Assembly (NCBI GenBank): GCA_017499595.2
Contig: CM039000.1
Coordinates: 4,092,001 to 4,156,000 of the forward strand
Direction of reading: 5' to 3'
Length of the DNA: 64,000 bases
DNA from: Psilocybe cubensis
Lineage: Eukaryota
Position numbers and translations under genes: made by a program. Within the stretch, counting starts at the first letter, position 1, and each line of letters opens with the position of its first letter. This document shows positions 4,143 to 26,387 of this stretch, one piece after another. The notes beneath the pieces are model-generated. The model was not told the DNA's origin. It made no database searches and saw nothing but the letters and a program-made list of their open reading frames with translations.

Positions 4143-5568
4143 AACCGACGAGTAGTACCAGTGCACGTTTGATGAAAAATTCTCGCAGATCACGTCTGAC
4201 TCTTAGTTAGAATCATTTTGTAGTTGCTATTATTTAATCTCTCGGGAGAGTTTCGGCAGGGAACAAAATCGGAGTCAAATTTTCTGGACCGAAACCCTAG
4301 GTTCGTGACCAACCTTTTTGATAAATTAGCTTTTCGAAGTCCGAACCTAGGATCGACGCTCGTACACCAGTTGTTTCTAACTCCGCCTATTTCTAGCTCC
4401 GCTCGGTGAATTTTATCATAAAAAACCTCTCTAGTTGAGCGGATTGCTTTTTTTTTTCACTATTCCCGAGTCACAAAACGATGATTCCCTCAAATCCGGA
4501 CCATTTGTCCCAGGCCTTGTGTGAATATCTCTCTTTTCGCAATCCGATCAATGTTTGACGGCATAATCAAAACAACATTTGTACAAACACATCACTCGGT
4601 ACCTGCCTTATCTAGAAAAGAGACGAGTCTAAGATTCACAGAAGCCTGGCTCGCGAGCGAGGCTCGTCCCAACCGTCAAACTCGGGCCAGTGAGTAAACA
4701 TCGTGCGAGCCTTCGAGTTTCCCATTGAACCAGAACGACATTCTGGCTGCAAAGCGTCAGCGGTCCTTCAACCCTATGAACCTCGAGGAGGTATCAACTA
4801 TCATGCCCCTCAAATCACCTTCTCGCGCTTTGATGGCTTTCAGGAGGTTTCTCGCCCACAATGAAACTTGACATACCTCTATCTTCTTCACTTCTTGAAT
4901 AGTGAATAGTTGGCTTCGAAGTCAAGGTCGACTCGGTCAGTGCGCATATATTTGATTATGGTTACAAATTTACAGTTTCGTATCAGTTCTGGATCCCCCG
5001 TTCAAGTTCAAACACCCGATTCTCGAGAAGTGACTGAGTAGGACATGAAAGGAGGAGAAATGGGTCCAGTACTAGAGCATCGGTGGGTCATCTACTCGCT
5101 ATTGCGTCATGTTAGACCGGTTCTCGGTTCTCGTTCACGCGCGTCCACATCCTTCCTATGCATCACTGGATGCGGTACTTCCCCCAAGACAATAAGTAAT
5201 CCTATTTTCTGCGTTCGTCGCTCATCCTACCAACGACTTCAAACCCTGTAAGAGGTGCGTTAGGAGGCGGCACCTTGCCATTACTTGTTGGAATGTCAGG
5301 CAGGAATCGAAAGGTAGGGTCAACATGGAACCCCGTAAGACCTGAGGCGGAGGTTTGGGTTATTTCTGATTTGACTCACTGTGGTATAGTGGATAGGTTT
5401 ACCTACGACCAGTTCAACTAACCGTTCATGATTCACCAGAATTGCACTGCTTCACTCGCGTTATTTCTAGCTAATCTCGCCGAGACAAATGGACTTTACG
5501 AACGCGTGGTTCAATGATGGAGGTTGAATTTTTATTTTGCAATCCCATTGGTCTGTAGTTGACAAACG

Positions 5569-6921
5569 CTATGGCCCCCCATCTATCAACCTCTTCGCAC
5601 GGATCCAAGCAGCAAATGCCATGAATAACTGCACCTTTGGGAAACGCTCGCAAAAGACCAATAGCGCTCCTAGCTGTGCTTCCTCTGTTGTACCACACGC
5701 TTTTAGAAGCTTGGCCAAATCCACCGGACACAGATATGGAGGCTGTCTGACGTCCTCGATCACAGTGCCACTTCCTTGCATGATGCACGCATAGTACACG
5801 CAGTGGTCCATTCCAAAGCAGTGCCCTAGCTCATGGCTTGACGTACGACAGACTCGCGCCAGCCAGGTGCCTGTGATGATGTCCTGTGGTGAACTATTGG
5901 TGAGGGGAGGTGTGTTAACGTACGCCAAAAGAGCCGCGCGCATCGGTGACGTGGCGTTCTGGTCGTCTTGTACATTCAAGTCAGAGTCGACCTTGGACTT
6001 TTTCTTTGGGCGCTTTGTTGAATCTGAGGCATCGATGCATTTCATGATGTATGATTGGCAGTGTGAAGCCGGCCAAGCGTGTTCCCGTTCTACTTCCTGG
6101 ATACCATCCAATGCTGGGTTATACCTTGCTGTAGATATGACGGAAATACGACTTGCACCGTACGCGCGCCCGCACACAAACTCGTCGTCGTCATCCTCGT
6201 ACAAATCATGGTTGACGAGTAGAAGGATGGCGTATGCATCCTCTGGAAGTATCTCAATGGCTGCCTCTAGTATGTCGTCGAGATTGAGCTGAGCTGGGTA
6301 AACATCATCTGGAGAAGGGCGAGCGCGGATGCCAATGCATTCGGTTTGACACGCTAATCCAATTCGGGTGGGTATTTTTGTTTTCATTTTTGAAGAAGCT
6401 CGCTTCAATTTCGGGGGATCATCCTCCCAACTTGTGAACCGCAGCTTCGTGGGTAGCGATTTAACCTGCATGCCATGGTAGAACGCTCCGAGATAGAGGA
6501 CAACATCATCAATTTTTGGGGCTGAGCAGGTCCCTGACATTGACGTTTTATTGGGATTGGGATTACACCATGTTTGGATGTAACCGACGTCTGAGTCAAC
6601 TTCTGGAGGGTATGCCACGTAGAGTACATTCCTCTGTGGGGTTACCTTGTTGCGATTCTTTTCCCTTGTCCATGATCGAAAACTTTGCGGAGGGCATCTG
6701 GGATCGTTTGAGAGGTCGTCATTGGGCAAGATAAGGGGTGCAGGGAAAGTTGACGGCGCTATTTCATCGTCGATGGCATGTGATGATAATCCATTTTTCC
6801 TGTTTCCTGTAAGAGTAACGGAAGCAGCGGCTGCCCGCTGCATGGCCGAAGGTCTCTTGAAACCCACACTTGCAGCATTAGTGCATGGTTCGAAAATGAG
6901 ACTAGTGTGTTTGCATGCCAT
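5569..6921 (-). CDS. Archaemetzincin-like zinc metallopeptidase (M54), intronless
   Basis: HELGHCFGMDHCVYYACIMQGS...PPYLCPVD matches the archaemetzincin HExxHxxGxxHCxxxxCxM...CP motif; DLYEDDDDEFVCGRA upstream. First ATG at 6921. Confidence 0.9.
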   Translation of the reverse strand: MACKHTSLIFEPCTNAASVGFKRPSAMQRAAAASVTLTGNRKNGLSSHAIDDEIAPSTFPAPLILPNDDLSNDPRCPPQSFRSWTREKNRNKVTPQRNVLYVAYPPEVDSDVGYIQTWCNPNPNKTSMSGTCSAPKIDDVVLYLGAFYHGMQVKSLPTKLRFTSWEDDPPKLKRASSKMKTKIPTRIGLACQTECIGIRARPSPDDVYPAQLNLDDILEAAIEILPEDAYAILLLVNHDLYEDDDDEFVCGRAYGASRISVISTARYNPALDGIQEVEREHAWPASHCQSYIMKCIDASDSTKRPKKKSKVDSDLNVQDDQNATSPMRAALLAYVNTPPLTNSSPQDIITGTWLARVCRTSSHELGHCFGMDHCVYYACIMQGSGTVIEDVRQPPYLCPVDLAKLLKACGTTEEAQLGALLVFCERFPKVQLFMAFAAWIRAKRLIDGGP

Positions 6922-7537
6922 TCGGTTTAGATGATTAAGCGCGTCGCAAGTTGTGGACGCGAACAATTGTCCTCAATTGTGTGGATGATTCCAGATCCGA
7001 TGAGTATGAGTCACAACACAAGTTTTCGGTTGGGCTGCATGTAAGCGTTGAATTTAATTTGAGTTTGATGCAAACATTGGCCGGGCCTGCCGGACCGGCA
7101 ACTTCCTGGGAAAAAATAGGTTTACCATGTGTTTGTCGGGAGATAGGTGAAAGCAGCTAACAAGTCAACCACTAAATAATCTTTAATCGGGTCCTGGTCG
7201 GCTCCACATAAAATGAAGTACTAGAAGCAAAGCAAGGTGAAATTTGTAAATCGATTTACCCTCTTTTTCTGCCCCTTCAAAGCTTCAATTGATATGATGA
7301 AGAACCTGGGTAGAATGGAGAAGGCCTTTGGTTACAAGAAGAAGATGTCAAATGATGCGAACTTGACTATTCTGCCTCTATTCAGTTGTTAGCAGCGCAG
7401 CAAAGGATGCGAATATATGATTAATGATTTCTCATCTTGACCGGATTGCATAAAATGTGAACGCACCTCGTCGTATAACAGAACGAAATACTCCTTTGTG
7501 TGGTCCAAGTCCCCATAACATCTCTTCTTTTCCTGAA

Positions 7538-8991
7538 ATGCGTATGAGTAAGTTTTTCACAACTTTTCGTAGTTCATCCCTGTGCTCACACACATATTCA
7601 GTTAATCTCACAGATCCGGGGAACGAGTCCTATCTCGCTCCCATTTTATATCGATACGATTACATGGCTGGCTGTCCAGACTTATCGCCAACTCAAATAC
7701 GCGATATCTTAGAGTCTTGTGACAAAAGCGCTGGAAAACCTCTCTCACCATTCCCTCGTTTAGTAATCGACGACTCATCGAAGATGACCGAGAACAGCAT
7801 CAAGTTATATCCCGCGGCTGCAGGTCTTCCCTGGCATTCTACTATTCTAGCTCTGAGGCAGACCAAGCATTGGAAAGCCGCAATATCTATGGTCACAAAG
7901 CTGCTAAATCTATTTGCAGAGGACGACATTTCCAATACAACTCTTTACAGAGGGTCCAAGTCATATGCAAATATTGCGAAAAGGGAGATACATGATATAA
8001 ACCACAATTGGTCCCGGTTCCTTTTGTTTGCGTGGCCAGGCGCCGATGAGAAAAGGATAGAGCTAATCTCAGCTACTCTGACCTTTGTGTTCCTCTTTGA
8101 TGGTAAGGTATGATTAAATCGTATTAGATCAAAGTCTAATTGTCTTCAAGATGTTTGGGAAATGCAGGACGAAGAAACAGTGCGTTATTTAAACCTAAAA
8201 TTATTGATTTGGCAACGTAATAGAGCTAACTCTACGAGCAGGTTCGCATTATTCAGGCCGAATTTATTTCTTGCCTGACGCTACCGGACTCTGAGATTTC
8301 TCTATTCAAGAGGGAGCGGAGCCTCACACCCCTCCAGGCTATGATTACTCAAGTTATACAAGGGATTTATGATGAAGACCAGAAAGGCGGAAATGGCGGC
8401 AAGGACGTAGTGAAGTGTCTGATCGATTTTATCAACCACCCTCCCCCTGCCAAGGAGTACCATACACTCAAGGAGTTTCTAGATTATCGCATAGTTGATG
8501 CTGCTGCGGAGTAAGCTGCTTTGATACTTTTCAAAGCTAGGCAACTGACATATGAAAACTATATCAGATACGTCTTTGCATGTGCCAAGTTCTCCATCCA
8601 TTCGAGTGTTCAAATGGACAGCCCAAGCATTAAACGGTTCATTAGACTTGCTTCAGAACATATATGTTACTCTAACGACCTTGGTTCGTACGATAAGGAG
8701 AAGGAGGCTTATGATGAAGGACATGTCTTGTACTTGATCAACGCGGTTGACATGGTGAAGAAGGTGTTCAAGCTTCCAGATGATGCCACTGCAAAGTCAG
8801 CTACACTTGCACTTCAAAAGCAGACCGAGATGGAACTCGGAAGGGAGCTTGAACACCTTCGTGCATCGGGTGAAGCTACTGCCCAGGAACTTGAATATTG
8901 CGAAGCTGTAATATATGCAATGATGGGAAATACGTTTGCCTCGGTGGTCATGTCCCGTTATGGGGGGGACGTCACTAGACTTAAATCTTGA
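7538..8991 (+). CDS. Class I terpene synthase, paralogue 1 (TS1), 5 exons, about 410 aa
   Basis: Exons about 7538-7547, 7602-8102, 8151-8179, 8242-8511, 8568-8991 give FLFDDVWEMQD (DDxxE), YRIVDAAA, NDLGSYDKE (NSE motif) and SRYGG (RY pair). Confidence 0.9.
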
Positions 8992-10316
8992 TTTGTTTTC
9001 GAAAGTATAGTTATCATAATATGATCACTGTTCCAAATCATATGTACTTGAACTCACAAAAAATAGGACATACGTCTCAATATGTAATTATATTTAGCCT
9101 CGGATGGTTTTTCCACCGACAACTTCAAGCGAGTGGAAGCTCAGGCTGTCGCGGCGTACCCATTGACAAGAAAGATATTTGCTTCGTTGGTTATATCCAG
9201 CTAAAGGTAAGCATGGGGTCAAGTCACTTGACATAAATCCTTTGTGCACTTATTCTTGGTATCAGTGGTATCTAGATAAAAAAATATGAATGAATATAGG
9301 TCATATAACAATCTTTCGTTGGGCCAGGTTGTTTTGCCAGAATTACAACGAAGAGGCTTTTTGCATTCGTATACTCTAGCATATAGTGTATCATTTACAC
9401 AGACAAATTGAGAGCCACTTAAGGATTCAATAATTACTGTGGGACTTGACGTTATAGCCACATCCCACTAAAATTCCTTACAACTTCCTCTCGCTTGTGT
9501 TGGACTTGAAACAGTGACCGGGTACTTTCATAGTTAAGATATCTTGTGGTGGGCGCAATGGTGCATGCGGCTGGATAGTGTCATTTTAGGCCAAAGGTTG
9601 TCGTTGAACTACATCTTCCTGGATAATTTCACTTCGCAGGGCCCTAGCAAGCCAGCTACTACATTCTGTCTAAGCCACAGTGCAGACTTGTCCTGTGGTG
9701 TAAATGTGATGGGGATGCAAGAAACGAAAACGTTATTTTTGAATAGTACTGAAAGGAAAAAATATCTCTCACAAATCATTGGTGTATCTTTCTCGGTTAC
9801 GTAAAGTAAAGGTGAACGAAGAGAAGAATCGGATGATTTTCCGTAGATCCGAACATCATAATAGATAGCATGAATGATTGAATCTGCACAGTAAGCTTTT
9901 ACATTTAGGGGTGAGACAAAGTTACACTCATAATTAGATATGTGCATCGCTGCTGTACCTGTATTTTAATATTACTATTATAAGTTTGATAAAAGTAGAA
10001 GTACCTAATCTTGTGACTGTCTGTAAAATAGGTCTTGAATATGTTGCTATACAAACCCGATTAAAATAATATAGAACATTATGAAAAAATAACTGGAAAA
10101 TTACCCCACTTTCAACCAAGAGAAGACAAGAAGTCACCGACTTGCCATTATGGTTTGCTGGTCATCACCCCAAGAAAACATATGGTAGATTATCAATAAT
10201 AGATTATCATCTCTAGTAATTGGTGTCAAGTCGGGCCGTATGACACTATAAAGTCGAAGCTGTGGAGGTTTTTACCGTCCTATCGTTCTCCGTATAGCTT
10301 CTCTGTTTTTTCCAAA

Positions 10317-11765
10317 ATGCACATCAGTGGGTCGTTTATATTTTCTAAGTAAGTTTGTACTTACATAGAATTTTAGAAGACTTAGTAGCACCTGAAGATG
10401 CGGAATTTGTCTCTCCAATACACTATATATACGATTACATGTCCGGGTGTCCAGACTTATCGCCAACGCAGACGTCTGATATAATGGGTGGTCTTGAAAC
10501 AGACTCTGGTAAAAAGCAACGACCAGTCCCTCGTTTATTGGTCGACGACAAACCAGTCATTCAACAAAACAGCGTCGCGCTATATCCTGCACCTGCCGGT
10601 ATTCCTTGGCACACTACTATTCCCCTGCTCAGACACAACAAGCATTGGGCATCTGCAGTGTCCATGGCCCGAAAGCTTCTCACCTTGTTTTCGGAGGACG
10701 ATACTGCAAATACGACATTACGCAGAGGATCGAAGTCGTATGCGGATATCGCAAAAATCGAATTAAACGCTCTGGATCGTAACTGGTGTTTGTTTCTTTT
10801 CTATTTGTGGCCCGCCGCTGATGAGAGGAGGCTGGAGTTGATTACGGCCGCAATCGTCTTTGTGTTTATTTTTGACGGTACGCTAATATTGACTGCTCGT
10901 GGTGGAAAGTTTACTAATTAAGTTGCAGATGTTTGGGAGATGAAGAATGAAGAAACAGTGAGCGTTATATACACATTTGGCATATCTTAACATGAAATCA
11001 AACTAACGATCACTACAGATTCGAATCATTCAGAAGGAGTTCGTCGCTTGTCTGAAATTACCTGACCCAGGGGACGTACTAGCGCAAGATGGAGAGAACG
11101 TCACTCCATTACAAGAAATGATATCCACGATCATACGAGGATTTGAAGAAGAAGATTCCGAATGCGGGAATGGCGGGAAGGATGTCATCAAGTGGCTTAT
11201 CGAGTTTATCAATCATCCACCCCCAACCAAAGAATTCGAGACACTCAGAGAGTTTCTAGACTATCGAATAGACGATGCTGCCGCCCAGTAAATATTCTTC
11301 ATTTCTCCTTGAAAAAACCTAACTAACAAATGTAAATTAAGGTTTGTCTTTGCGTGCGTCAAATTCTCGTTGCGCTCCAGTGTGCAGATGGACAGTCCAA
11401 GGATAGAGAAATTCATGAAAATCGCGTCGGACCACGTATGCTACGCAAATGACCTCGGATCGCACGATAAGGAGAAAAAGGCCTATATTCGCGGGGATGT
11501 ACTGTACTTCATCAACGCAGTCGATATGGTGAAAAAGGTGTTCCATCTTCCTGATGACGACGCTGCAAAGTCGGCCACGCTTGTTCTTCAGATGCAGACC
11601 GAGATTGAGCTGGGAAGGGAACTAGAGCGTTTGCGCGCATCGAGTGACGTTACGGTTGAGGAGCTTGAATACGTGGAGTCTGTGGTGTACGCATTGACGG
11701 GGAACATCTTTTGTTCAGTGGTCATGTCCCGCTATGGAGGGGAGGACACTAAACTTGAAATTTAA
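10317..11765 (+). CDS. Class I terpene synthase, paralogue 2 (TS2), 5 exons
   Basis: MHI|KDLVAPED...FIFD|DVWEMKNEET|...YRIDDAAAQ|...NDLGSHDKE...SRYGG; same intron positions as TS1. Confidence 0.9.
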
Positions 11766-11932
11766 GTAATAGAACATATTATGTTTGAAAATATAATGCC
11801 TTTTATTTCTTCCCAGAAGTTGACTGAAAGGGACATTGTTTCAAATATCTACGTGGTAGGTTTTGCACCAACTCCTTCGACTCAGTTCATATACATCTTG
11901 CATTGTAGTCCACGATACCTAACAATCACGAC

Positions 11933-12480
11933 TCACTTAGTCAGCTCAGAATATAACCATGCAGATTTCTTACCATGGTCATCAAGAATTTGTTTCACCC
12001 TTGCATCCGCTTCCGAGGGCGACGGTTTAGGCACATCATCTATGTTCATATCCGACCTGCCAGCAAACCTCGCACGTCGACTCATAACCATCAACTCGAA
12101 GGGTTCTTCATATCCTACCTGCCTCATATTGAAGCCCGCGTCAGTGTACACATTGCTCATCTTAGTAAATGACGAGGAGATAAGGCAGAGTAGCAAAGTG
12201 ATGTTGGTCTAAAAGAAGACTAGGGGTGTATGAATGAGCCGTAACCGTATGAATGTACTGAATGTGGTGCAACGGAGCCGAGTGCGAACAAATTTATTCC
12301 AATCACTGGACAATTAGCCATGCAAATGTAGTAGCATAGAAGTACAACTCACAAGTAGCCACTCTGACCTTATATTTTTCCTCTTCGAAGTACCCACACA
12401 AAGTCCAACAGTCTTCCTGCCCCTTTACATTTGACGGTAAATGGGATAAGCAGCAGCTCTCATTCCACCGTATCGAACAA
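11933..12480 (-). pseudogene. Fragment of an unidentified spliced gene
   Basis: Two exon-like segments ending at GTGAGT donors (…YKVRVAT and …WLYSELTK). Upstream frames contain stops; no recognisable family. Confidence 0.3.
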
Positions 12481-14769
12481 CTTAACAAAGCGGCCTTAGC
12501 TCTGTAGCTCGTTTGCTTCTTTCAACGGGACCGACCATTTCCAAGGATCACTGGATAGAAAACGACGAGGTAGACGGGCAACAAAGTGTGAGGCGGAGGC
12601 AATTCATGAGTAGATCAAGCGCTAAAGAGTCTCATCTTGAGAGTAGTGGGAGTCCGTATAGCCGCGAGAGTACATGCCTTCCTCCTGTGGGTGTGGTAAC
12701 GGTTTAGTTGTAATTGAACGAAGACTTGCCAGTGGCAGGCGACCAACAGACCACCGGCAATCAACCGGCACACATCAATTTCCCACGAGCTTGTTTGGTC
12801 TTCAACAACAGTTGATCACTGCATCTTTGCAGCAGTTATTATAAGAACATACTCTAACATACTAGAAATCACTCATCTTTTGCCTACTGTACTGACTGTA
12901 TTGCTAGGGCTACCTTGTAAAAATTTACCACACTGTTGAATCTGTTATCCGTCCACAGATGCTCTGAGTAGTAGCTGAGACCCTTCAAAGTTCAAACGCC
13001 AAGAGAGACAGTAGACTTATCATCTTCCTTCCGATTGGCGCATAGATTATCCAATTTCTTTAAATTCTTACCGTAATACCTCGTAATACTGACCTGGAAC
13101 TTCCAGCACCTTCCCGCTAACACGTTTTGAATTTGGAAGCATGAAGAGTCTAGCTCATTCTGGAGTGGGTCCTGGCATCAATGCAGACTTAGACTCTGTC
13201 TTTCTGATTGCCGGATTTCTTCGACGTCTCATTACTTAAGAAGTTGACGTCGAGGCACCCACTAAAGTACCTATTGAGCCATGAGTGCATTCAGTAGTGC
13301 ACAATATCCCATTAAGGTCATTGCTACAGGAACACTGGAGATAATTAAAGGGACATCCGGACCATGCAACCCAACGTTGTAGTCCAATATAGACATTTGT
13401 CAACTTCAACCATTCTTCAGATTATTCCCATTCAATAAACTGTTGGTCAAATACTCGTTGACGTCCATGTGAGGCAGTGATTTTGTTGTTCAAGGATAAC
13501 CATTAGCAAGCTAGCCCGAATTATAAGCTCAAAGCGGCAAACACTCGCTTGTACTGTAATTCAAAATGTACGGAATATACGCAGCATTCTTTTCAACCAT
13601 TTGGGCCTTGGGAGTCAAATGGGGACATGCTCCCGACCCATATTCATGAGCGCTAGCCATTCGTAGGAGAAGGATATTGAAACTACCGCACACGTGTACT
13701 TAGATAAATCACTTTACGTACCTTTCGCGGGACAGGTGTTGCCTTCCGTCACTCCCTTAAGCAAGGCAACCCGAAGTTCGGGTTCGCGTAAGATGTTGTC
13801 AGGATCTTTGCCCTAATTTTTCGCTTCTCTTGTTTTTCATATACACGCGATTGGTACCATGGTGAGAGGTTACGTGTGTAAATGAAGTGGGTGAGTCTGA
13901 GATTGCCAGCGCAAAGTCGTTGTACTTTCGACTTTCACATGCTAGCCATTCACGCTAACAGGTGCTGCTTGCTTTGTGCTTGCTAACTGCATTTGAGATT
14001 GTGTTGAGATCTTTCGCGTTCGCCAAAAGTAGCCAAGTGAACGTGATTTGTCAGAAGGAGTATCTTTTTTTTTTCTTCCGTTCACGACGCGGCGGAGGTT
14101 ACTGCTTTCTTGTCACAGAGGTCATAGATGAGCAATGCTTATCCATGTTCGCTGTAACCCGATATAGTTTTTTCCTAAATTCGGACCAATACATCATTCA
14201 CGACTCCAGGATGTGGACATTACCAAAACATTCAGCGCATGAATAAGTGACGTTGTACCTGTGTCACCATGGGTGTCCACTTTGGACAGAGGAAGGGGGG
14301 AATGGAATTTCTGACCCGCGTACCGTGTCCACTGTCCTAAGTCACAAGTGTGTTACCAAGCTGAAGACGAAATGAAATTAGTTCAGTCGATCACATCGTG
14401 TAGACCTAAATAGCCGATGGCATGACGCGTGAAGCTAGTAACACAAGGGATGGAAGAGGTGGTTTGCGTGCCAGCGACATGCGCCGAGCAGTGTTACGAA
14501 AATTGTACTCCAACCTATGCTTCTACTAATTCAGTCGATTAATTCACACAAAATTATGAAAAGCCGACGACTAAATCGGCGGTGAATCGAGCACAATCCC
14601 GTCATGACAGACGTTTTGAGCTATAGTGGTTCAAGGCAGTGACGGAATGCAATCTGTGCGATAGAAAATTTTGGATGGCCTGATATCTGTGGGCAGAATA
14701 TAAATTCACAGATAAATTGCATTTCTTATCAACATTTCTCCTCCCGAATTCAATCCTCTGTCTGTTTAC

Positions 14770-16290
14770 ATGGCCTGCGTCGATACAAGTATGTTTATCA
14801 TTTGTATCACAGGCGTAAACCTGCTAACTATAGTTCTACAGACAACCTCGCCGACGAACGCAGCAAGTCCTTCGTCTGGCCTATTTCTTATGGCTTCGAT
14901 TACATGTCTGATTGCGTTGAGAGCTTACCTTTATCAAAAGATAACTCTGATGCCGTCACTGTTCCATTCCCTCCATTGTTAATGGAGAGTGATCCCAAAG
15001 TCAACGATGCCAGCATCTCGCTGCACCCTGCCGACGCTGGTCTTCCATGGCACACTTCGATACCCTTCCTCCGGCAAACGAAGCACTGGAGAAGTGTCCT
15101 ATCTATTACCCGCCGGCTCCTGGAACTCTTTGCTGACGCGGGCTCGGACGACACCGCGAGTAAAATCTGCTTAGATATCGATGCTGCGTTTGCGCAAGGA
15201 ATGGTAAACACCTGGGCCGAGGTGGCGAAGGCAGAAATACCCATCATTTTCGATAGCTGGAGCCGGTTTAATGCATACTTTTGGGTTGCGGCTGACGAAC
15301 GGAGGGTGGAACTAATGACTGCGGCCAATGGGTTGATCATTATTTTTGACGGTGAGCTATAAATAACCCCTTCTTCGCTCATTTTTCGTGTCCGCTGATT
15401 AAAAAGCCCACTTCATTTTTAGATGTTTGGGAGACCAAGGATTCCGAGGCAGTACGTCTTTCCATATCTATTTATGTTATCTTTTTATTAAATTTATTGT
15501 ACGCGCAGATTCACAAGATTCAAGCCGAATTTCTGTCGCGTTTCAAGGTACGCGACAGTGGACGTGGGCGTGGTTTCCCCAATGTTCGGGAGGAAGACAC
15601 TACCCCACTCCAGGCCTTCATAACGGATGTCATACAAGGTTTCTACGAGGAAGACACGAAAGGCGGTAATGGTGGAAAGGAAGTTGTCGACCGGATGGTC
15701 GAGTTCATCAACCACCGCCCTCCGGCACGGGAGTTTACCACGCTTCGCGAGTTCCTCGATTACAGGATTAAAGATGCGGCCGTCGAGTGAGTATTCTATC
15801 TGTAATTGATTTTGATTGTGTATGCTTAGCTTGCTGTCCTAGGTTTACGTTTACTGGAGTCAAATTCTCTCTGCGATCGAACGTCAACATGGAGAGCCCC
15901 AGGATTGCACGCTTCATGAGTCTCGCATCAGACCATGTGTGCTACGTTAACGATTTGGGATCCTACGACAAGGAGAAAGCTGCATACGAAAGAGGAGAGA
16001 TCGTGTATATGCTCAATGCAGTCGACTTTGTGCGCAGGATGTATAACCTCCCCGACGATCGCAGTGCGAAGCGGGCCACACTGCAGCTGCAGATGCAGCT
16101 TGAGAGAGAGATGGCAAGCGAGTTAGATCGGCTGCAGCGCCTCGTAAGAGAGTGCAGCAAGGCAGATGAAGCACCCAGCATGGAGGAGTTGGAGTTTGTG
16201 GAGGCGGTGGTGTATATTGTGACCGGAAATATCTTTACTTCGGTAGTCATGTCAAGGTATGGTGGAAAGGCTGCACGATTGAGCTTGTGA
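14770..16290 (+). CDS. Class I terpene synthase, paralogue 3 (TS3), 5 exons, most divergent copy
   Basis: MACVDT|NNLADERS...IIIFD|DVWETKDSEA|...YRIKDAAVE|...NDLGSYDKE...SRYGG; same intron positions. Confidence 0.9.
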
Positions 16291-16639
16291 GGGGTGGATT
16301 GGCTTATTAAACAGCGAGGTTGGCAGTTCGATAAATGTATTATAGCCCATTGACCTTAGCGCCTGTAAATAGTATGTATAATGATATGTAATGAATGTTC
16401 ATTAGGAGGTTTTTGCGGTCTCCAACAATTGCAACAGATTGCGTAAAACTCCCATTATCTGGGGTCTACACCAGGAGCAGAACAAGGTGATGATAACCTT
16501 TAGTATAACAGGAATTAAGGTGACGATTTATTGTCGTTTTCAGAGAAGAACCGTCAAGGAATAACAAAAACAAGGCGTTACATTTGAATTACCGATAGTA
16601 CTGGGATGTTCATATATGTAGCTTTCGTAGATTGATGTA

Positions 16640-17180
16640 GCGTGCTTTTACCTCGTTGTTCTCAGGCAATTTGTGCAGGTCTTTTCAAAGTGCAGGAGTG
16701 TGCCTACCAGCCTTCAAGCTTCAAGCTGAACTTGCCCAATGCTGCCGAGAGTGCCGTGTTCGCCTGGCCAGTTTTATCAATTAACGTTCAATCTCCGATC
16801 ATGCACGGGCGTCAGCTGACAGCTGGCCAATGCGAAACGTTCCATGTTGCCCAAGTCCTGTCTCAACCATTTCTGTTTTTGCGACTTATATTCGTCCCTG
16901 TATTCTGTCTGGATGACCCGGTGTATCATTATCGTATTCTCCAATAGCGACGTCCCGATTCTGCGAAAATGCCCTACTTCACTGGTTTCCAGTGTCAATG
17001 TCATTGCTGCATCGTTTCTTCTACCTTCTACGGCCTGATTTCCTCGATACAACTTTCGATGGTCATGAAAACCAATCAGATAATATGCTAGCGCTATGCG
17101 TCTGGTGTCTGGGAGTGTCTCAGCGTTCTTTCGAGCTCCTCTTCAAAATTAGCCCGATTTGTTTATGTGAAGAAGATGTT
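16640..17180 (-). pseudogene. Possible decayed NB-ARC/TPR (NLR-like) gene remnant
   Basis: IMIHRVIQTEYR resembles the winged-helix HRLIQ segment; a TPR-like GTLGSIGQVQLE..LLHFEK follows in another frame with stops. Weak resemblance only. Confidence 0.25.
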
Positions 17181-17478
17181 ATACTGGCGAAATGAAGCTG
17201 CGTCGACTTCAACACAGTTTCGATTTGAGCTGTATACACATGCGGAGTACCTGTACCCTGCTGTAATGGTGTACCCTCACAACTTAATTAACGGCGTTAA
17301 ATTGGTTGTGATTCGTTGAAAGCCATGTCTTTGGAAAGCCATGTCTCTGATATACGCCCATCGATGCTTGATGGGTTACCGAAGATGCCTGATGTCAATT
17401 GCGAAGTCACATACCCATTCACATGTTATGCTACTGTTGCTCCTATTCGCTACATTGTTGTCTAGTTCCAAAACCAAC

Positions 17479-18941
17479 TTAGGATATAAGTCGTGCGACA
17501 TCCCCTCCATAACGGGACATGACCACTGAAGCAAATGTATTGCCCATTGATAAATGGAGCACGGCTTCGCAATATTCAAGCTCCTCGGCAGTAGCTTTGC
17601 CCGATGCACGAAGCTGTTCAAGCTCCGTTCCGATTTCTATCTCGGTCTGCTTTTGAAGAGCAAGGGTAACTGACTTTGCGGTGACATCATCAGGAAGGTT
17701 GAACAGTTTCTTGATCACGTCAACCGCGTTAATGATGTACGAGACACGACCTTGATTATATGCCTGTTTCTCCTTTTCGTATGAGCCAAGGTCGTTAGAG
17801 TAGCAGATATGCTCTAATGAAAGCCTGATAAACCGTTTAATGGTAGGACTGTCAATCTGAACACTGGAGTGTAGGGAGAATTTGACACCTGCAAGGCCGT
17901 ATCTGATATCATTTTGTGTCGGTGTCAAGTACATTTCTCAGAGACAATGCTAAAGCAGCTTACTGTGCAGCCATATCGACAATGCGGTAATCCACATACT
18001 CTCTCAGCGTATTGTAAGTCTTGGCGGGAGGAGGGTGGTTGATGAAATCGATCAGGTACTTCACGACGTCCTTGCCGCCATCTCCTCCTTTCAGATCTTC
18101 ATCATAATACCCTTGTATAACTTGAGTTATCATAGCCTGGAGGGGTGTGAGGTTCCGCTCCCTCTCGGATAAAGAAGTCTCAGAGTCCGGTAGTTTCAGG
18201 CAAGAAATAAATTCGGACTGAATGATGCGAATCTGCTCGTAGTATTAGATTTAGTATTTAGTTTACTCAGAGTATATTCATTTAGGTTTGAATGACCCAC
18301 TGTTTCTTCATCTTGCATCTCCCATACATCTTGAGGATAAATTAGACGGAGATCTAATACGAGTTAATTATATCTTACCATCAAAGATGAACAATAAGGT
18401 CATAGTAGCGGAGAGCAGCTCGAGCCTCCTCTCATCAGCGGCAGGCCACAGATAAAAGGTAAATCTAGGCCAACTGTGATCTATGACGCGTAGCTCCTTT
18501 TTAGCCATATTCGCATATGACTTGGACCCTCTGTAAAGAGTAGTATTGGCAATGTCGTCCTCTGCAAATAGATTTAGCAGCTTTGTGACCATAGATAATG
18601 CAGCTTTCCAATGTTTGGTCTGCCTCAGAACTGGAATGGTACAATGCCAGGGAAGACCTGCAGCGGCGGGATATAGCTTGATGCTATTCTCGTTCATCTT
18701 CGCCGAGTCATCTATTAATAAACGAGGGAATGATGAGAGAGGTTCTCCAGCGCTTTTGTCACAAGACTCTAAGATATCGCGTATTTGAGTTGGCGAGAGG
18801 TCTGGGCAGCCAGCCATATAATCGTATCGATATGAAATGGGAGCGATGTAGCATTCGTCCCCCGGATCTGTAAAATTAACTGCGAAGTTGTGTGAGCAGT
18901 AATACTCATAAACTCTGAACAGCTATAAAAGACTTACTCAT
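17479..18941 (-). CDS. Class I terpene synthase, paralogue 4 (TS4), 5 exons
   Basis: LFIFD|DVWEMQDEET|...YRIVDMAAQ|...NDLGSYEKE...SRYGG. The first ATG seen in TS1 and TS5 reads ACG here, leaving ATG at 18941 and a 4-nt coding first exon. Confidence 0.88.
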
Positions 18942-20096
18942 ACGCGTTTCAGAGAAAAGAGAGATGTTATGAGGACTCGGAACACGCAAAGGTGGTTGTT
19001 ATTTTGTTCAGTTATCCAGCAACATGGCTACATTTTATACATTTTGGTAAAGATAAGAAGTTATTAGTAATATAGATTCAATTGTCAACACCCGAACAAG
19101 AGCAGGCGAGTTATGTGTGCATCATTTAATATCTTCTTCCTGTACGAAAAAACCTTTCCCATCCCGTTCACGTTCTCCGTCTTCTTATGAAATTACAATC
19201 ACACTGAATACTTTTGTCAAGGTCAGGGAAAGGTGATCCACACCGCTGTGCAGATGCCAGGTCCCATTTGTTGTCAGAATGATCCTTCAGAAACCACTGG
19301 CATTCTGCTGTCTGATGCTACCTCGGCACTTAAGTGTCTCCATGATGTATCTAACGATTTTAAACGTAAAAATTCCCTGGTTTTGCTTCTGGTCTTTCTG
19401 CATGGTCGAAGCCGAATAACATGCGATTGCAGAAGGTCCCGTGCTACCATACAGATATTTAGTTGGCCATTTATTTCCACCTTTCCCGAAGAGCACATTC
19501 TAAACTTATTTTTCAATAGGACACTGCCTGTCCACCACTGATCCTCGTGTGTGTTTTCCATCAAGCTGATAACATAAATGCATTAGTATGCCATGCTATC
19601 AATGAAATAGCTCCGTCAAGTTCAAGTTCGTGTAGACTTCTCAAACGATTCAGGTCGCGCTCCACAAAGTTTTCAATCATGGAAAAGGGAACGAAATCGT
19701 GGTATTCACTCCAGATGTTGACCCTGTGGATACATCAAAGCATGGTGACCAACTTGATAATGTGGTCCCCTACCTCGCCGCGTTATACGATGTCATGTGG
19801 GTTCAATCTCTACCCATCAAGCCACGGTTCACATAACAGTAAGAGATAAATAAACAGAAAGTAGCACCCGTTTATGCTTTGCATAATTGGAATGAAAACT
19901 CATATCTTTTTACTCTAGCAATGACACAGGATGGAGATAGGCAAGTGTTATTGCAATGATTTATTAGCCATTGAAGACTGTCTTTAAATTTTGAATTCAT
20001 GAAGGTTAACGGAGGTGGTATGATGCCGTAAAGTTGTTGAAGTACATCACTTGCGACGCGGTGGGCTTTTCCTTGTTTTAGATGTCCCCAGTTTGA

Positions 20097-21437
20097 TTAG
20101 ACAATCGCTAGATTAAGCTCCCTTCCCATCTCCATCTCGGTTTGCTTTTGAAGTGCGAGTGTAGCCGACTTTGCTGTGGCATCATCTGGAAGCTTGAACA
20201 ATCTCTTCACCACGTCAACCGTGTTAATGAAATACAAGGCATGTCCTCGATCATATGCCTCCTTCTCCTTCTCATACGAGCCAAGGTCGTTGGCATAACA
20301 GATCTGTTCTAATGCAAGTCTGTTGAAGCGTTTAATACCTGGACTGTCAATCTGAACACTCGAATTCAGGGAGAATTTGGCACATGCGAAGACATATCTG
20401 GAATCATTTATATATGTTAGTCACCTGTTATAGAGAAGGTATTGAAGCATCGTACTGGGCAGCGGCATCATCTATGCGATAGTTGAGAAACTCACTGAGC
20501 GTACTGTACTCCTTGTCTGGGGGAGGGTGATTAAAATACTCGATTAACCACTTGATGATGTCCTTTCCTCCATTTCCACCTTTAGAGTCTTCCTCATGAA
20601 GCCCTTGTATAACCTGAGTAATCATTGTCTGTAGGGGTGTGACTTTCTTCTTCCGCTCTGATGAACCCATCTCAGAGTCCGGTGGTCTCAGCAAAGAAAT
20701 GCATTCAGACTGAATGATACGATTCTGCGCGTAGCATTAACTTTATTATTTAGTTCCATAAATAATTTTTTGCTTTAAATGACCCACTGTTTCTTCATCC
20801 TGCATCTCCCAAACATCTTGAAGAAAATTAGACTGCGATCCTATACGAGGTGATTATATCTTACCATCGATGATGAATATGAAGGCCATAGTGGCGGACA
20901 TGAGCTCGAGCCTCCTCTTATCAGCGGCGGGCCACATATACAAAGAAAATCGAGACCAATTGTGATTTACGCCGTGTATCTCCTGTTTCGCAATCTTTGC
21001 ATGCAACCTAGACCCTCTGTGAAGAATTGCATGAGCAAAGTCGTCCTCTGCAAATAGATTTAGAAGCTTGGTGGTCATCGAAATTACGGATTTCCAGTGT
21101 TTGTTTTGCCTCAGCACTGGGATAGTAGAATGCCATGGAAAGCCTGCAGCCGCGGGATGTAACTTGATGCTGTTCTCAGTCATCTTTGCCGAGTTGTTGA
21201 TTAATAAGCGAGGGAACGACGTAAGCGGCTCTCCAGAGCTTGTGTTACAAGGCGCCAAAATCTCGCGTCTTTGTGTTTCTGATAGGTCCGGACAGCCAGC
21301 CATGTAGTCGTATCGATATAAAATAGGAGCGATATAGGACTCGTCCCCCGGCTCTGTGAGATTGACTGCGAAGCTGCGTGAGCACACGCATAAACTCTGA
21401 ACAGTTTTAAAACAACTAAACACCTACTCATACGCAT
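20097..21437 (-). pseudogene. Class I terpene synthase paralogue 5 (TS5), 3'-truncated
   Basis: FIID|DVWEMQDEET, YRIDDAAAQ and NDLGSYEKE are present, but homology stops after TEMEMGREL (then NLAIV-stop at 20097). The last helix and the SRY motif are missing. Confidence 0.82.
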
Positions 21438-21889
21438 TAAGGCTCCAACCGTTTAGTTTCCGTTTAAATTTTTTTACAAACTAAACGGAAACGGTAATAA
21501 ACAGTTTACAAACGTTTATAAACGTTTGTAAACAGTAAGCTCGAGGGTGGCTACAAGGGCAGGCGTTCAACAGCGTTCAACGCATCACTTGTCCTAATGC
21601 GGCCCATTTGCCAAGGAATATAATAGTCGGCACCTAATTGGTACAAAAATGTGACCAAAACAAGAGTGCAAATGAGTTAGTTTGGTGTAAAGAATAAAAG
21701 ATGAATCATTTGATGTAATACGCACCTAATATTGTCCAAAAAAGAGATATACTTTAGCACAAAAATCTGTTACCGTTTGAACCGTTTATAAACGTTTGTA
21801 AACTGTTTAACAAGGCTCGTAAACTAAACGAAACGGTAAATGGTATATACGGTTTACAAACGAAAACAAATGAAACGGTTGGAGCCTTA
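21438..21889. mobile_element. hAT-type MITE (452 bp)
   Basis: Terminal inverted repeat TAAGGCTCCAACCGTTT...AAACGGTTGGAGCCTTA, exact 8-bp direct repeat ATACGCAT at 21430-21437 and 21890-21897, and subterminal AAACG/CGTTT repeats. An 8-bp TSD is the hAT signature. Confidence 0.88.
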
Positions 21890-23086
21890 ATACGCATTTC
21901 CCCGGAGAACATAATGGAGGTTGTTATCTTGTTCAGTTGTACAACGATGCACGTCCACATTTTATACAGTTTGGTAAAGATAAGAAGCCATTAATACGCA
22001 TTCAGAGTGTGTTGAACATGGGCATTTAACAACCGGACATGAGCAGAAGAGTCAAGTGTGCATCATTTATTATCATCTTCCTGCCATACAAAACGGCCTT
22101 CTCCGTTCTATTCAGGTTATACATCTTCTCATAAAGTTAAAATCACACTGGGTGAGCTTTTTCTAGGCCAGAGAAGGGAGACCTGCCCCGCCCTGGAGAT
22201 GCAAGGTACCATATTTTTGGCAGAATGATTGATTTCTGTGAATCGAACTTCAGGAAATACTGGTATTTTGCCGCATGGGGCCACCCCAGGCACTCAACTA
22301 TCTCCATGATGTAACTGACGATCGTAAAAGTGAAAAATTCCCTGGCTTTGCTTGTGGTCCCGATTGCAGACCATCCCGTAGCTGCGATGAACCACTAATA
22401 CCCGCGAGAGTTTTCATATCAAGGTGACAAAAAAAAATGCTTTAGGATCCCATGCCATCGGTAAAATTACTCCATCAACATTGAAGTGTTCTTCTTCTAG
22501 AATGAAAACATAAATAATACCCACCTGAATTGGCCTAGGAATCAGCTGACTGAGAGACTGAGATGTGTGTCAAAGAATGTATACGCCTTCCTTCTACCTT
22601 TTCAATCATGATATGATTTGCATGAAGATGAAAAGGGCGAGTTGGTGTGCGGGGCCGGGAGCGCGTTCAGTTCATGTCGCATTTCCATCTTATCCATGGT
22701 TAAACGTTAAAGGTGCAAGCCTACAATGGATGGGAGCTACTGATAAGAACTCAGAAGTAGAACGGGGGCCTGCCTGGCTGCACATTGTCAGTCATACATC
22801 AAGCAAATATACCGATGCCTCAGACCGCCCTTTAGTATCTCATCCTGTAGGTCTTACCGCAAACAAAGAGAAAGTAGAAAAAAAAAAAGAAACAGAAAAA
22901 GGGAAAGGAGAAAAGCAGTGTCGAATCAATTAAACACTCTAAAATACAACTTGACGACCCAAACCACATCCAAACCACACCCCAAACACCGTAGAGTTGG
23001 TATTGGTATCATTAGCAACCCCCACGATGACGACGACGACGACGACGACCACATACACTTCCATACCCACATTTCCACTTTCGTGA

Positions 23087-23125
23087 TTAAGCGATCTTGA
23101 CTGTCTAAACCACAACAAAAAAAGG

Positions 23126-23159
<34 letters not shown>

Positions 23160-26100
23160 AGGATCAAAGCCAGTCAGCCACAATCCCAAAAAACACAAAG
23201 AATGAACAAATAAAAAGATCGACGTACTTTGGCGTATAGAGATTCTACGACTTTGCTAATTTGCTCGATTGTATCGATCGCAGCGCCATATGTGTTCTAT
23301 CCGCACAGAAGAACGGGGCGTATGTCAGTATAAAAAATAACGATATAGCGATATAATGATAGAGCGATATAGCGATATAATGAGGGAGGACATACGTCAG
23401 CTTCAGGTTCGTCGTAGATAATCAGACAGTCCCGTCCCTGATCAAGAACACCGAATAGCGTCTTGTCAAGTATCATCTTCGAGAGCCTATGTGTACATAT
23501 ATCAGCGATCAACATGGTCAGACGAATAACACGCGAAGAAACGAAAAACGAAAAACGAAAAACCAAAAAATAAAAGTAAAATAAAATAAAATAAATAAAA
23601 TAAAAATAGAAAGAGATAAACGCACTTGCTCTCAACACTCTGCCTCTCCTGCCCAACCTGCTCCGCAACATACCCAATCTCGACGACGGAGTAGGGCTCG
23701 ACGACGCGCTTGAGGTTGCCCTCGAAGAGCGTGTCGTACAGCTCGGAGAGGTGCGTGCGGATTGTTGGGTCCGATTGGAGTTCTGTGGGAGTGGGTGGGT
23801 GGGGTGGGGCGTGGGACGTGGGGGCGTGGGCGTGGGGCGTGGGCGTGGGGCGTGGGATTGGGTCGTGGTGTGTGATGGCGTGGTGTGGGAGGTGGTGTGT
23901 AGTGTGTGATGTGATGTGGCATGGAGCGAGGTGTGGTGTGGATAATAGGACGGAAGGAACGAAATAAGACATGGATATGGAAAGACAAAGTCATCAGTAA
24001 ATATACCACATTATAGCCATAAAAGAGAGATAAAAAATCGAAGAATCAACAACGCAGAAAAAAAGAGAAAAATTAAAAAAGCTGAAAAAGGAAAAGAAAA
24101 GGAGCGAGGAGGATATAACACGATACCACGTTAACACGATGATACGATCACCCGCACCCGTACCAAAGCACACGCACAGCGACGGCGCGTTCCGTTGCGC
24201 ATACGATACATTATGGAATTGTCAGCGGGTCAGGTGTGTCGTGTTGCGCATCGCAATTGTGTGTTGTAGTTGTGCGCGTTGCATTGTATTTGTGTGCTAT
24301 CCATTATGCATTATGCATTATGCACTACGCGCGTAAACGCTTCGGACCCGCTTGTATGAAATGCCGCGATACGCAACGGAGCGGCTTGGTGGCGATGGGG
24401 ACGACAGGCAGGGACGATGATGAGGATGGTGAGGGGAAAGCAAGGGGGATGTGGTTTATGATGGTGGTGTAGCTTGCGCAAAACATTCGGAATATAACAT
24501 GTATCCGAACAAGCCAACCATCCGATCGTATAAGCCGCAAAGGCCATAACCGCGAAACTCGGTGAACTCGCACAAGTTCAGAGTCAAATGCAAGTCGTAC
24601 GTGTATCCGAAAGAGGGAATGGAAAGACCATAAATGGACTTGACTGGATTCCTCCGAACTTGGCGCATGGCAGAGGCGAGAAACATAGAAACAGAACTTT
24701 CCAGAAAACAAAAGAAAAGAAAATAAACGAAAAGAAAAGGAACGAAAAGAAAGACAAGAAAAGAAAGAAGAAAAGGAGAGAAGAGACGAACGTACCCTCG
24801 CGATACTCCCTCAACACCTCTCCAAACTCCTTCAGATCTCTCCGCTGATGCGCACGCGCGACGGCACGCATACTCTGCACGTCCCGTGTCTGCGCGTAGC
24901 TGTTGGCGAGTTTGAGTGTGAGGAGCGCGTTGACGTCTTCCGGCTTTTAATTTCAAGGTGACGGGTGTGGTGAGCTGATACAAAAAAGGAGGGGAGGGAG
25001 AGGAGGGACGTACGAGGTTCAACATGACTTTACACAGTAACATGTACTTCAACGCCGAGAGCGCCTGTCCAACCTGCCCCTGTGCATTCTTACCCTTCTC
25101 CGAGTCCCCTCCCACTCCCGGCTCTTTCGCCCCGTCCTCCTTTTCTTTATCCTGAGGTTTGCCGCTTAGACCCTCCTCGCCCGCGGCGCTGAGATTCTCG
25201 AACGCCTCGAAGAAGTAGGAGTACGCGGTGCTGTAATCTTTGTCTTCGGCGTGTAGGATCCCGGATTGCATGTCGAGTTGGGATTGGAGGTAGGGTGGGC
25301 AGTAGATCGAGTTGGCGGCGGTGCGGGAGGAGGTTAGGGAGGCCTTTATTGTGGGTGGATGGATTTGTGAGTCTGTGTTGGAGGGAGAGGGAGGAAGGAA
25401 GGGAGGAGGGAGGGAAAGCGTACCTTTGCCTTTGCCATGTTTCCGATGCCGCGGTATACCCTGCTTTCGAGGAGGTGGACTTCGGTGAGGATCATCTTGT
25501 CGTCTAGCTTCTTGAGCTCTGTGAGAAGTGTCTCGATGAGCGCGAGGGCGGGTGTAAATTGCCGTGCTTCGAGTTGACTGGTTTAGTTGGGTTTTTTTGT
25601 GAGCTTGGATAGAGGTGTTTGGGATGGGAATACGTACAGCGCAACGAGCCGTGTTTCGAGCGAGTGTTTGAGGAAGATGCGTTTTTCTTGTTTGGCCCAT
25701 GCGATGTTGTCGGTGAGAGTTTTGATTTGGATTTGTTGGCTGTTTGGAATGGCGGAGAAGAAGTCGAGAAGGGTGCGGACTGGACATCCGAAGTCGTAAT
25801 TGTTGTTTTGAGAGATCGAGGCAGTTGAAAATCGTCAGTTACATGTAGAAAATACATTGAGAAGGTGTGTGGGGTGGATACGCACTTAGCTTTGCTGTCT
25901 TTGCTTTTGCTGTTGAACTCATGAACGCCCGCGAGGCTGTGATCACCTCTGCCAGTCCAGCCGCATACTTCTGGTCCCGATACAACTCTCCAAGTTTGAC
26001 AAGCGCAGTTTCCTGATCGCGCAGGACTGTAGGATCCGGTGTGGTGTTGGTGCCTGCAGTAGAAGAGGAGGTGGAGGTGAGGATCTGCTTGTAGAGCGCC

Positions 26101-26186
26101 TCTGCTTCCTTTGGGTTTGATTTGGCGAGGGTGTCGGCGCGCGCGAGGAGGTCGGAGACGGAGGTCGAGGTCGAGGTAGACGCCAT
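23087..26186 (-). CDS. RPN6: 26S proteasome lid subunit Rpn6 (PSMD11), multi-exon
   Basis: [87 protein letters not shown]-terminus SLYAK|TVKIA-stop. Confidence 0.95.
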
Positions 26187-26387
26187 GGATGTGGTGGAAG
26201 GAAGTTGAGAGATGAGGAGAGATGGAGATTTGCAAGGGGGACACGCGTCGCACCCGTGGGAAAATCAGAGCTGACGCGTCGCCTGCCTCTTTCTTCAACT
26301 CTTTCTCATTTCTCTCTCTTGTCGACTATTCCTGGGTTTCTCGTATAAAACATATAATCCTTCGATAATCAGCTTATAACGTACAAG
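26187..26387. promoter_or_regulatory. Putative bidirectional promoter shared by RPN6 and RPN7
   Basis: Only 201 bp between divergent ATGs. Contains ACGCGTCGC twice (26243-26251, 26274-26282) flanking CGTGGGAAAA (26255-26264). Confidence 0.7.

What the first reader, a model, noticed from the sequence alone, without database searches (positions are those of the whole stretch)
7538..21437. Five-gene array of atypical class I terpene synthases with no tailoring genes
Seen: five paralogues in 14 kb (three +, two -), all with the same four introns. The DDVWE motif is split by intron 2, so it is invisible in the ORF track; NDLGS(Y/H)(D/E)KE is present in all five and RY in four. They share an N-terminal region (YDYMxxC, PxxAGxPWH, LRxxKHW) that I do not recognise from characterised basidiomycete Cop-type sesquiterpene synthases. 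Known: DDxxD/E, NSE and RY define class I cyclases. Inference: a lineage-specific expansion of a poorly characterised synthase clade making a panel of unoxidised or volatile terpenes, since no P450 or prenyltransferase lies in the window. This is the best candidate for a new system here.
Basis: partly seen in the sequence, partly recalled or inferred. Interest (0 to 1): 0.8.

Follow-up and report, generated by a model that had tools for sequence, protein, structure and literature searches.

The report
Mould-type terpene synthases in magic mushroom
Five neighbouring genes in the mushroom Psilocybe cubensis encode terpene-making enzymes of a family otherwise found almost only in moulds; the family is known, but what these five make is not, and they may have come from a mould by gene transfer.

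Summary
The array is real: five paralogues with four shared introns and the stated motifs. Genes C and most of B, D and E match Psilocybe cubensis database proteins letter for letter. It is not a new system. The proteins belong to the AaTPS/BcStc3 family: AaTPS, a 7-epi-alpha-selinene synthase (PDB 6LCC), matches over the full length (E 9e-92; TM 0.81/0.91), including the 'unrecognised' N-terminus. A 2024 paper lists all five as uncharacterised homologues. A-D are intact, with dN/dS 0.13-0.23. E has lost its RY helix in this haplotype and has a MITE at its start codon; two other DNA-like runs carry about 230 extra bases at the break. New here: the agaric copies nest among ascomycete proteins beside Bipolaris (100/99; AU p 0.010 and 0.075), which suggests horizontal gain and then subtelomeric expansion. 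Paralogue C has Asn at the site that the 1,8-cineole synthase Hyp3 needs to stay a monoterpene synthase. No products or transcripts are shown.

The parts
7538..8991 (+). Gene A, 410 aa, AaTPS/BcStc3-type class I terpene cyclase, intact; exons 7538-7547, 7602-8102, 8151-8179, 8242-8510, 8568-8991
   Evidence: 79% identical to D; its C-terminal part equals database protein P0156
10317..11765 (+). Gene B, 410 aa, intact; exons 10317-10326, 10377-10877, 10929-10957, 11019-11287, 11342-11765. The NCBI model (P0001, XP_047752266, 420 aa) uses a 20-nt first intron; a 50-nt phase-1 intron matching the other paralogues fits better
   Evidence: fold and PDB match
11491..12706 (-). Spliced minus-strand transcript (introns 11749-11799 GC-AG, 11919-11973, 12258-12352, 12481-12535) with a 72-aa ORF that has no Pfam hit; its 3' end overlaps the last exon of B in antisense
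   Evidence: joints in contigs of runs X1 and X5, whose RNA nature is a guess of the tool; splice signals and ORF; Pfam on its main exon
14770..16290 (+). Gene C, 427 aa, intact, the most divergent paralogue (50-51% to the others); Asn169 seven residues before the first Asp of DDxxE; exons 14770-14788, 14842-15351, 15423-15451, 15509-15786, 15843-16290
   Evidence: identical to P0002 / XP_047752267
17479..18941 (-). Gene D, 408 aa, intact; inverted duplicate of A (81% DNA identity over 1.6 kb); starts at the second ATG because the first reads ACG
   Evidence: ends with database protein P0004
20097..21437 (-). Gene E, 369 aa in this haplotype; lacks the last ~40 residues including the RY pair, probably inactive here
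   Evidence: P0006/P0159 (XP_047752269) end the same way
20110..20111 (.). Deletion junction in E: contigs of DNA-like runs X2 and X4 carry further sequence here (230 bases in X4 record 19), part of which matches the end of gene A (8934-8979) on the opposite strand
   Evidence: tables 5 and 8; A needs 141 bases from the equivalent point to its stop
21438..21889 (.). 452-bp MITE with terminal inverted repeats and an 8-bp target-site duplication that includes E's start codon; it separates E from its upstream region
   Evidence: 8-bp duplication in 8 of 8 copies examined; 15 near-full-length matches, this copy included, at 94-100% identity in the genome

Best explanation
A subtelomeric tandem and inverted expansion of one AaTPS/BcStc3-family class I terpene cyclase. 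Shown here: family, fold, intact metal-binding motifs in A-D, purifying selection, and breakage of E. Inferred from the family: each enzyme binds three Mg2+ through DDxxE and NSE and holds the diphosphate with the R-x-x-D sensor and RY. It ionises a prenyl diphosphate, most likely FPP as in AaTPS, and cyclises it to a sesquiterpene hydrocarbon or alcohol. The paralogues differ at pocket positions on helices C, D and the G kink, so their products probably differ; C may prefer GPP or capture water. Inferred from the tree: the ancestor came into the Psilocybe/Galerina lineage by DNA-level transfer from a filamentous ascomycete, introns included. My odds: family 0.97; A-D catalytically competent 0.85; FPP the main substrate of most copies 0.7; ascomycete-to-agaric transfer 0.65.
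For: AaTPS is the best PDB match by sequence (E 9e-92 for B, 4e-80 for C; next best 1.5e-17 and 6e-13) and by fold (TM 0.81/0.91, 35% identity; model pLDDT 86.8). AaTPS has DDSWE and NDLASYDKE and used only FPP among GPP, FPP and GGPP (PMC7414894). Sensor R, linker D, NSE and RY are kept in A-D. dN/dS is 0.13-0.26 in the 6 of 10 pairs with unsaturated dS. All 14 named clusters outside Psilocybe in my look-ups are filamentous ascomycetes. The published BlastP found 7 basidiomycete proteins in 3 species among 160 proteins in 124 species (PMC11120764). Agaric rows form one branch (99/98) whose sister is Bipolaris P0157 (100/99), and two mixture-model trees agree. The intron in D|D appears shared with ascomycete members. 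The contig ends in telomere repeats 73-87 kb from the array.
Against: No product, assay or transcript of A-E is shown. 35% identity to AaTPS does not fix the product, and AaTPS F146 is Trp in all five (my mapping from the alignment). BcStc3 deletion and overexpression gave no new sesquiterpene (abstract). 'Selinene' does not occur in the main text of the 2026 Psilocybe headspace paper, whose supplement could not be read. Ascomycete monophyly was rejected under LG+G4 (AU p 0.010) but not under the mixture model (p 0.075). The outgroup fills only a third of the columns, and AaTPS and Galerina KDR73888 were not in my trees. Only 20 of the 150 representative hits, plus P0001, were looked up by name.
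Confidence: 0.68

Rival explanations
1. Same family, but inherited from the common ancestor of ascomycetes and basidiomycetes and lost from most mushrooms; or transferred in the other direction, into Bipolaris.
For: The mixture-model AU test does not reject ascomycete monophyly (p 0.075). Shared introns fit common descent as well. The deep branches of the family are unresolved. Bipolaris P0157 is the only ascomycete row on the agaric branch.
Against: It needs loss from nearly all basidiomycetes (3 basidiomycete species of 124). The agaric copies are 43-46% identical to P0157, while P0157 is 28-39% identical to the other ascomycete rows in the same table. LG+G4 AU p 0.010.
Confidence: 0.25
2. 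The copies are mainly monoterpene or diterpene synthases rather than sesquiterpene synthases.
For: The second-best structure is Hyp from Hypoxylon (8II9), probably the 1,8-cineole synthase Hyp3 (my inference from the entry title and PMC8956814). C has Asn at its N135 site. F146 to Trp could narrow the pocket. Cyclase domains of fusicoccadiene and sesterterpene synthases are weaker hits.
Against: A, B, D and E carry L, I, M and M at that site, like AaTPS (I), which did not use GPP or GGPP. Di- and sesterterpene synthases match only at E 1e-8 or worse. No GGPP synthase lies nearby.
Confidence: 0.2
3. The array is a silent or decaying subtelomeric relic that adds nothing to the mushroom's chemistry.
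For: E is deleted and MITE-interrupted here; the region is rich in transposons (KDZ, Plavaka); an antisense transcript overlaps B; the major headspace terpenes but one are assigned to Cub enzymes.
Against: A-D have intact frames and splice sites and dN/dS 0.13-0.23. E seems to keep its end in other isolates. Relatives persist in P. cyanescens and in a metagenome contig.
Confidence: 0.2
4. Their main role is aromatic prenylation of indoles with DMAPP, relevant in a tryptamine-rich mushroom.
For: AaTPS prenylates indole at pH 8.6; F244 and Y272 of its pocket are kept as aromatic residues.
Against: In AaTPS that activity is 5000 times less efficient than cyclisation and is shared by unrelated class I cyclases. 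Nothing here points to it specifically.
Confidence: 0.05

Closest known systems
AaTPS of Alternaria alternata, 7-epi-alpha-selinene synthase with cryptic indole prenyltransferase activity (PDB 6LCC/6LCD; PMC7414894, first 3 of 8 parts of the main text read)
   Same: Full-length match including the N-terminal extension; DDxWE, NDLxSYDKE, sensor R-x-x-D and RY; length 410-430 aa; TM 0.81/0.91.
   Different: About 35% identity (structure-based); F146 is Trp in all five; basidiomycete host; five-copy array; products untested.
BcStc3 family of Botrytis cinerea (PMC11120764; abstract, section 2.1, passages of section 3.3 and rows of Table S2 read)
   Same: DDMWE / NDLASYDKE / R-D triad / RY, 411 aa. 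Its Table S2 lists all five proteins, XP_047752265-69, at 31-35% identity to BcStc3, plus P. cyanescens and Galerina marginata.
   Different: BcStc3 has no known product. In the passages I read the paper calls the basidiomycete copies uncharacterised and mentions gene transfer only in general; its tree of the top 55 hits holds Galerina but no Psilocybe protein.
Hyp of Hypoxylon sp. E7406B (PDB 8II9/8IJT), probably the 1,8-cineole synthase Hyp3 (passage in PMC8956814)
   Same: Shares the G(L/V)PW part of the N-terminal extension; its N135 site aligns with Asn169 of paralogue C.
   Different: About 20% identity. That the entry is Hyp3 and that N135 equals the published N136 is my inference.
Psilocybe cubensis CubB-CubI, Cop-type clade I, III and IV synthases (PMC12247026 passages; PMC13096983 parts 1 and 3 of 6 and passages)
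   Same: Same organism, same class I chemistry; tandem copies with a broken paralogue occur there too (cubG1-G3).
   Different: 316-364 aa against 408-427 aa; no sequence match to the genome's other PF19086 loci. CubA's size was not seen.

Membership tests
Class I terpene cyclase (PF19086) | DDxx(D/E) motif on helix D | tested here: met
   DDVWE in 5 of 5 spliced models
Class I terpene cyclase (PF19086) | NSE/DTE motif on helix H | tested here: met
   5 of 5
Class I terpene cyclase (PF19086) | Diphosphate sensor R-x-x-D and C-terminal RY | tested here: met
   Sensor in 5 of 5, RY in 4 of 5; E lacks it in this haplotype
Class I terpene cyclase (PF19086) | Alpha-helical terpenoid synthase fold; Pfam score over cut-off | tested here: met
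   Model of B only, pLDDT 86.8; Pfam 38-48 bits for the database proteins of B, C, D and E
Class I terpene cyclase (PF19086) | Mg2+-dependent cyclisation of a prenyl diphosphate | not testable with these tools
   needs an assay
AaTPS/BcStc3 family | Full-length homology, far above other cyclases | tested here: met
   E 9e-92 against 1.5e-17 for the next structure; listed among BcStc3 homologues
AaTPS/BcStc3 family | N-terminal extension of about 85 residues | tested here: met
   The exon-2 profile aligns over 1-166 with AaTPS 32-195, E 1.7e-28; extension described
AaTPS/BcStc3 family | FPP to 7-epi-alpha-selinene; indole prenylation at basic pH | not testable with these tools
   known for AaTPS only
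Cop-type basidiomycete sesquiterpene synthase clades I-IV | Sequence kinship with the genome's other clade I-IV synthases; about 315-365 aa | tested here: not met
   Best tblastn E 0.34 against 24 other PF19086 loci; a separate branch in the trees; trichodiene-type clade IV loci were not fetched
Hyp3-type fungal monoterpene synthase (paralogue C) | Asn on helix D seven residues before DDxxE | tested here: inconclusive
   Present in C, but also in 4 of the other 21 rows of alignment A3, none with a known product; overall identity about 20%
Bifunctional di/sesterterpene synthase (fusicoccadiene synthase type, NCBI's label for C) | Fused C-terminal prenyltransferase domain | tested here: not met
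   Stops at 408-427 aa; no PF00348 match on this contig
hAT-type MITE (superfamily assignment recalled, not from a call) | Terminal inverted repeats, 8-bp target-site duplication, dispersed copies | tested here: met
   no autonomous partner was sought

The most novel reading that the evidence does not exclude
An ascomycete terpene cyclase gene crossed, introns and all, into the Psilocybe/Galerina lineage and expanded near a telomere into a working panel outside clades I-IV that recent surveys of the Psilocybe terpenome did not assay. Paralogue C switched to monoterpene or water-capturing (cineole-like) chemistry through the same helix-D Asn as Hyp3. One paralogue may make the orphan wound-induced volatile neotrifaradiene, and E segregates as an intact/broken polymorphism among strains.
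Probability: 0.3. Interest if true: 0.68.

Novelty: new member of a known kind. Interest (0 to 1): 0.45.

Why it matters
The 2026 survey of P. cubensis sesquiterpene synthases calls itself complete for clades I-IV, yet leaves neotrifaradiene without an enzyme. Four intact enzymes of another family, none matching CubB-I in size, would add chemistry to a mushroom whose minor metabolites are of pharmacological interest. The family had one characterised member among 160 in 2024, so five paralogues at 50-79% identity are a compact natural series for mapping pocket residues to products. A transfer from ascomycete to agaric would be the reverse of the terpene-synthase transfers named in the passages I read. 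It is a good enzyme-discovery lead, not a new kind of system.

Tried and rejected
Expression: no RNA holder was listed. The two runs guessed to be RNA gave contigs only at 5521-5699 and 11491-12706 and none on exons of A, C, D or E; this is no evidence either way. The RNA contig over B's last exon is spliced on the minus strand, so it is not B's mRNA. More copies in the genome: a search with A's last exon found 5 of 5 candidates, all in the array. E's missing end elsewhere in the window: none by tblastn. Tailoring genes: none; the genome-wide P450 search scored only 92 of 369 candidates, so it gives a lower bound. NCBI names 'Terpene cyclase aneC' and 'Fusicoccadiene synthase' were treated as automatic labels: no prenyltransferase domain is fused; AneC itself was not compared. 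Identity with CubG1-G3 was rejected on size (326-329 aa). The word-index protein search is insensitive here: it returned neither AaTPS nor Galerina KDR73888, so its blanks were not used as absence. The metagenome scan gave 1 locus of 99 pattern matches. Trees: the 36-row careful mixture tree did not finish and the quick tree was read. One search dropped 10 unnamed rows and 2 outgroup rows; one search dropped the 10 unnamed rows, D, E and 3 outgroup rows. A first model of C took a wrong donor (its identity row used that model) and was corrected. Literature: searches for a report of transfer of this family into agarics and for a BcStc3 product returned nothing beyond PMC11120764 in the listings; subscription journals and the CubA paper were not seen. 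The supplement of PMC9400892 (part 1 of 2) gives only counts, so whether its 20-21 synthases include these five is open. Earlier scan notes held nothing on this family.
Full report
Observation. Spliced models give A 410 aa (7538-8991, +), B 410 aa (10317-11765, +), C 427 aa (14770-16290, +), D 408 aa (18941-17479, -) and E 369 aa (21437-20097, -), each with four GT-AG introns in phases 1, 1, 0, 2 at matching places. Intron 2 splits the DDVWE motif. The NSE motif is in all five and RY in four. An NSE-type pattern occurs 5 times in the window and never in 50 shuffles. C equals database protein P0002; B (after its first exon), D and E match P0001, P0004 and P0006; all are labelled Psilocybe cubensis, accessions XP_047752266-69. 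A search of the genome with A's last exon finds these five and no others. The window is C3:4092001-4156000 and the contig ends in telomere repeats at 4186456, so the array is 73-87 kb from a chromosome end, beside KDZ and Plavaka transposase genes.

What family. The best solved relative is AaTPS of Alternaria alternata: E 9e-92 over residues 2-419 of B, against 1.5e-17 for the next entry. The AlphaFold model of B (pLDDT 86.8) matches 6LCD with TM 0.81/0.91 and 35% identity. The AaTPS paper describes it as an extension of about 85 residues whose truncation lowers activity and solubility, and reports DDSWE, NDLASYDKE, FPP as sole substrate and 7-epi-alpha-selinene as product (PMC7414894). A 2024 study of Botrytis BcStc3 found 160 homologues in 124 fungi, 7 of them in three agarics: five in P. 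cubensis, one in P. cyanescens, one in Galerina marginata. It states that only AaTPS is characterised (PMC11120764), and its Table S2 lists XP_047752265-69. So the family and these five members are in print; in what I could search, their products are not. They are unrelated by tblastn to the genome's other PF19086 synthases (best E 0.34) and larger than CubB-CubI.

State of the copies. A-D keep DDxxE, the R-x-x-D sensor, NSE and RY; dN/dS is 0.13-0.26 in the 6 of 10 pairs where dS is not saturated, 0.13-0.23 for pairs among A, B and D. A and D are an inverted duplication (81% DNA identity over 1.6 kb), and E is 77-78% alike to both. E lacks its last 40 or so residues. In contigs of two DNA-like runs there is extra sequence at 20110/20111 (230 bases in X4), part of it matching A's end, so E probably keeps its end in other isolates; the X4 copy differs at 131 of 1203 bases. 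A 452-bp element with inverted ends and an 8-bp duplication sits at E's start codon; 15 near-full matches at 94-100% identity occur in the genome, and 8 of 8 examined have the 8-bp duplication. Between B and C, contigs of two runs guessed to be RNA show a spliced minus-strand transcript whose 3' end overlaps B's last exon. Expression of A-E was not shown either way.

Neighbourhood. No P450, prenyltransferase or other tailoring family was found among 83 window ORFs and 51 ORFs in 30 kb upstream, nor by tblastn or heme motif. That does not mean the products stay unoxidised: the genome has many unlinked P450s, and the one metagenome relative (L042, 67% to the P. cyanescens protein, same four introns) lies head to head with a P450. 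The host of L042 is unnamed; I treat it as an agaric from its tree position and the look of its P450, which is an inference.

Mechanism. From class I chemistry (established knowledge), three Mg2+ held by DDxxE and NSE ionise the prenyl diphosphate, and the pocket folds the cation. FPP is the likeliest substrate because the nearest characterised enzyme uses it alone. Mapping AaTPS pocket residues by the alignment, F244 and Y272 stay aromatic and F146 becomes Trp in all five; several helix C, D and G positions differ among paralogues, which suggests different products. C alone has Asn seven residues before DDxxE; this aligns with position 135 of the Hypoxylon Hyp structure, the site named in its N135A mutant. 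A passage in PMC8956814 says Hyp3 N136 mutants turn this 1,8-cineole synthase into a sesquiterpene maker. The same Asn occurs in 4 of the 21 other rows of alignment A3, so it is a lead only.

Origin. All 14 named clusters outside Psilocybe are filamentous ascomycetes (the classification of the genera is my knowledge). The seven agaric rows form a branch (99/98) with Bipolaris P0157 as sister (100/99); mixture-model trees agree (96 and 99). Forcing the ascomycete rows together is rejected under LG+G4 (AU p 0.010) but not under the mixture model (p 0.075). The outgroup is fragmentary, and AaTPS and Galerina are missing from these trees. The intron in D|D seems family-wide: 75 of the 93 hits with a locatable motif, out of 149 examined, read D-G there as an unspliced frame would; a Lecanora model and a Botrytis byssoidea model carry insertions at that spot. 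Transfer from an ascomycete at the DNA level is the simplest reading (about 0.65), with ancient inheritance and wide loss as the rival. My searches found no paper that tests this.

Verdict. Observation confirmed; interpretation partly supported. These are uncharacterised members of a known family, four intact, in an unusual host. Interest 0.45: specific, testable enzyme predictions and a likely transfer, but no new kind of system.

Noticed in passing
window 23297-27576: 26S proteasome lid genes Rpn6 (-) and Rpn7 (+) lie head to head (Pfam RPN6_N, PCI, RPN7).
   Followed up: no
window 43186-44207 (-): ORF fragments that read like a decayed second copy of Rpn6; not tested.
   Followed up: no
window 5569-6972 (-) and L043:5677-6441 (-): Two M54-type metallopeptidase genes about 10 kb apart. 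A 65-bp piece of the first recurs inverted at 19635-19699, upstream of D, so the A-to-D duplication may have carried part of it.
   Followed up: partly
window 1-1195 (-): Sedolisin (S53) peptidase gene with a Pro-kumamolisin domain, running off the window.
   Followed up: no
window 21438-21889: Recently active MITE family with 15 near-full matches on 9 contigs; its autonomous partner was not sought.
   Followed up: partly
window 10317-10376: The NCBI model of B needs a 20-nt first intron, and the NCBI models of D and E use a shifted acceptor that breaks DDVWE; these models need correcting before cloning.
   Followed up: yes
window 20111-23200: Runs X2 and X4 diverge strongly or lose cover over E and its upstream region, suggesting a highly polymorphic haplotype block.
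   Followed up: partly
window 53132-54112 and 56649-57353; 34728-35503 and 41385-42094: Pairs of similar ORFs with no Pfam hit, the first pair GC-rich; probably repeats or local duplications.
   Followed up: no
L042:1-1470 (-): P450 gene head to head with the metagenome relative of these cyclases; one exon's best match in this genome is about 50% identical and unlinked.
   Followed up: partly
L044:2627-5750 and L045:3400-5082: KDZ transposase with CxC2 domain and a Plavaka transposase 15-27 kb upstream of the window.
   Followed up: no
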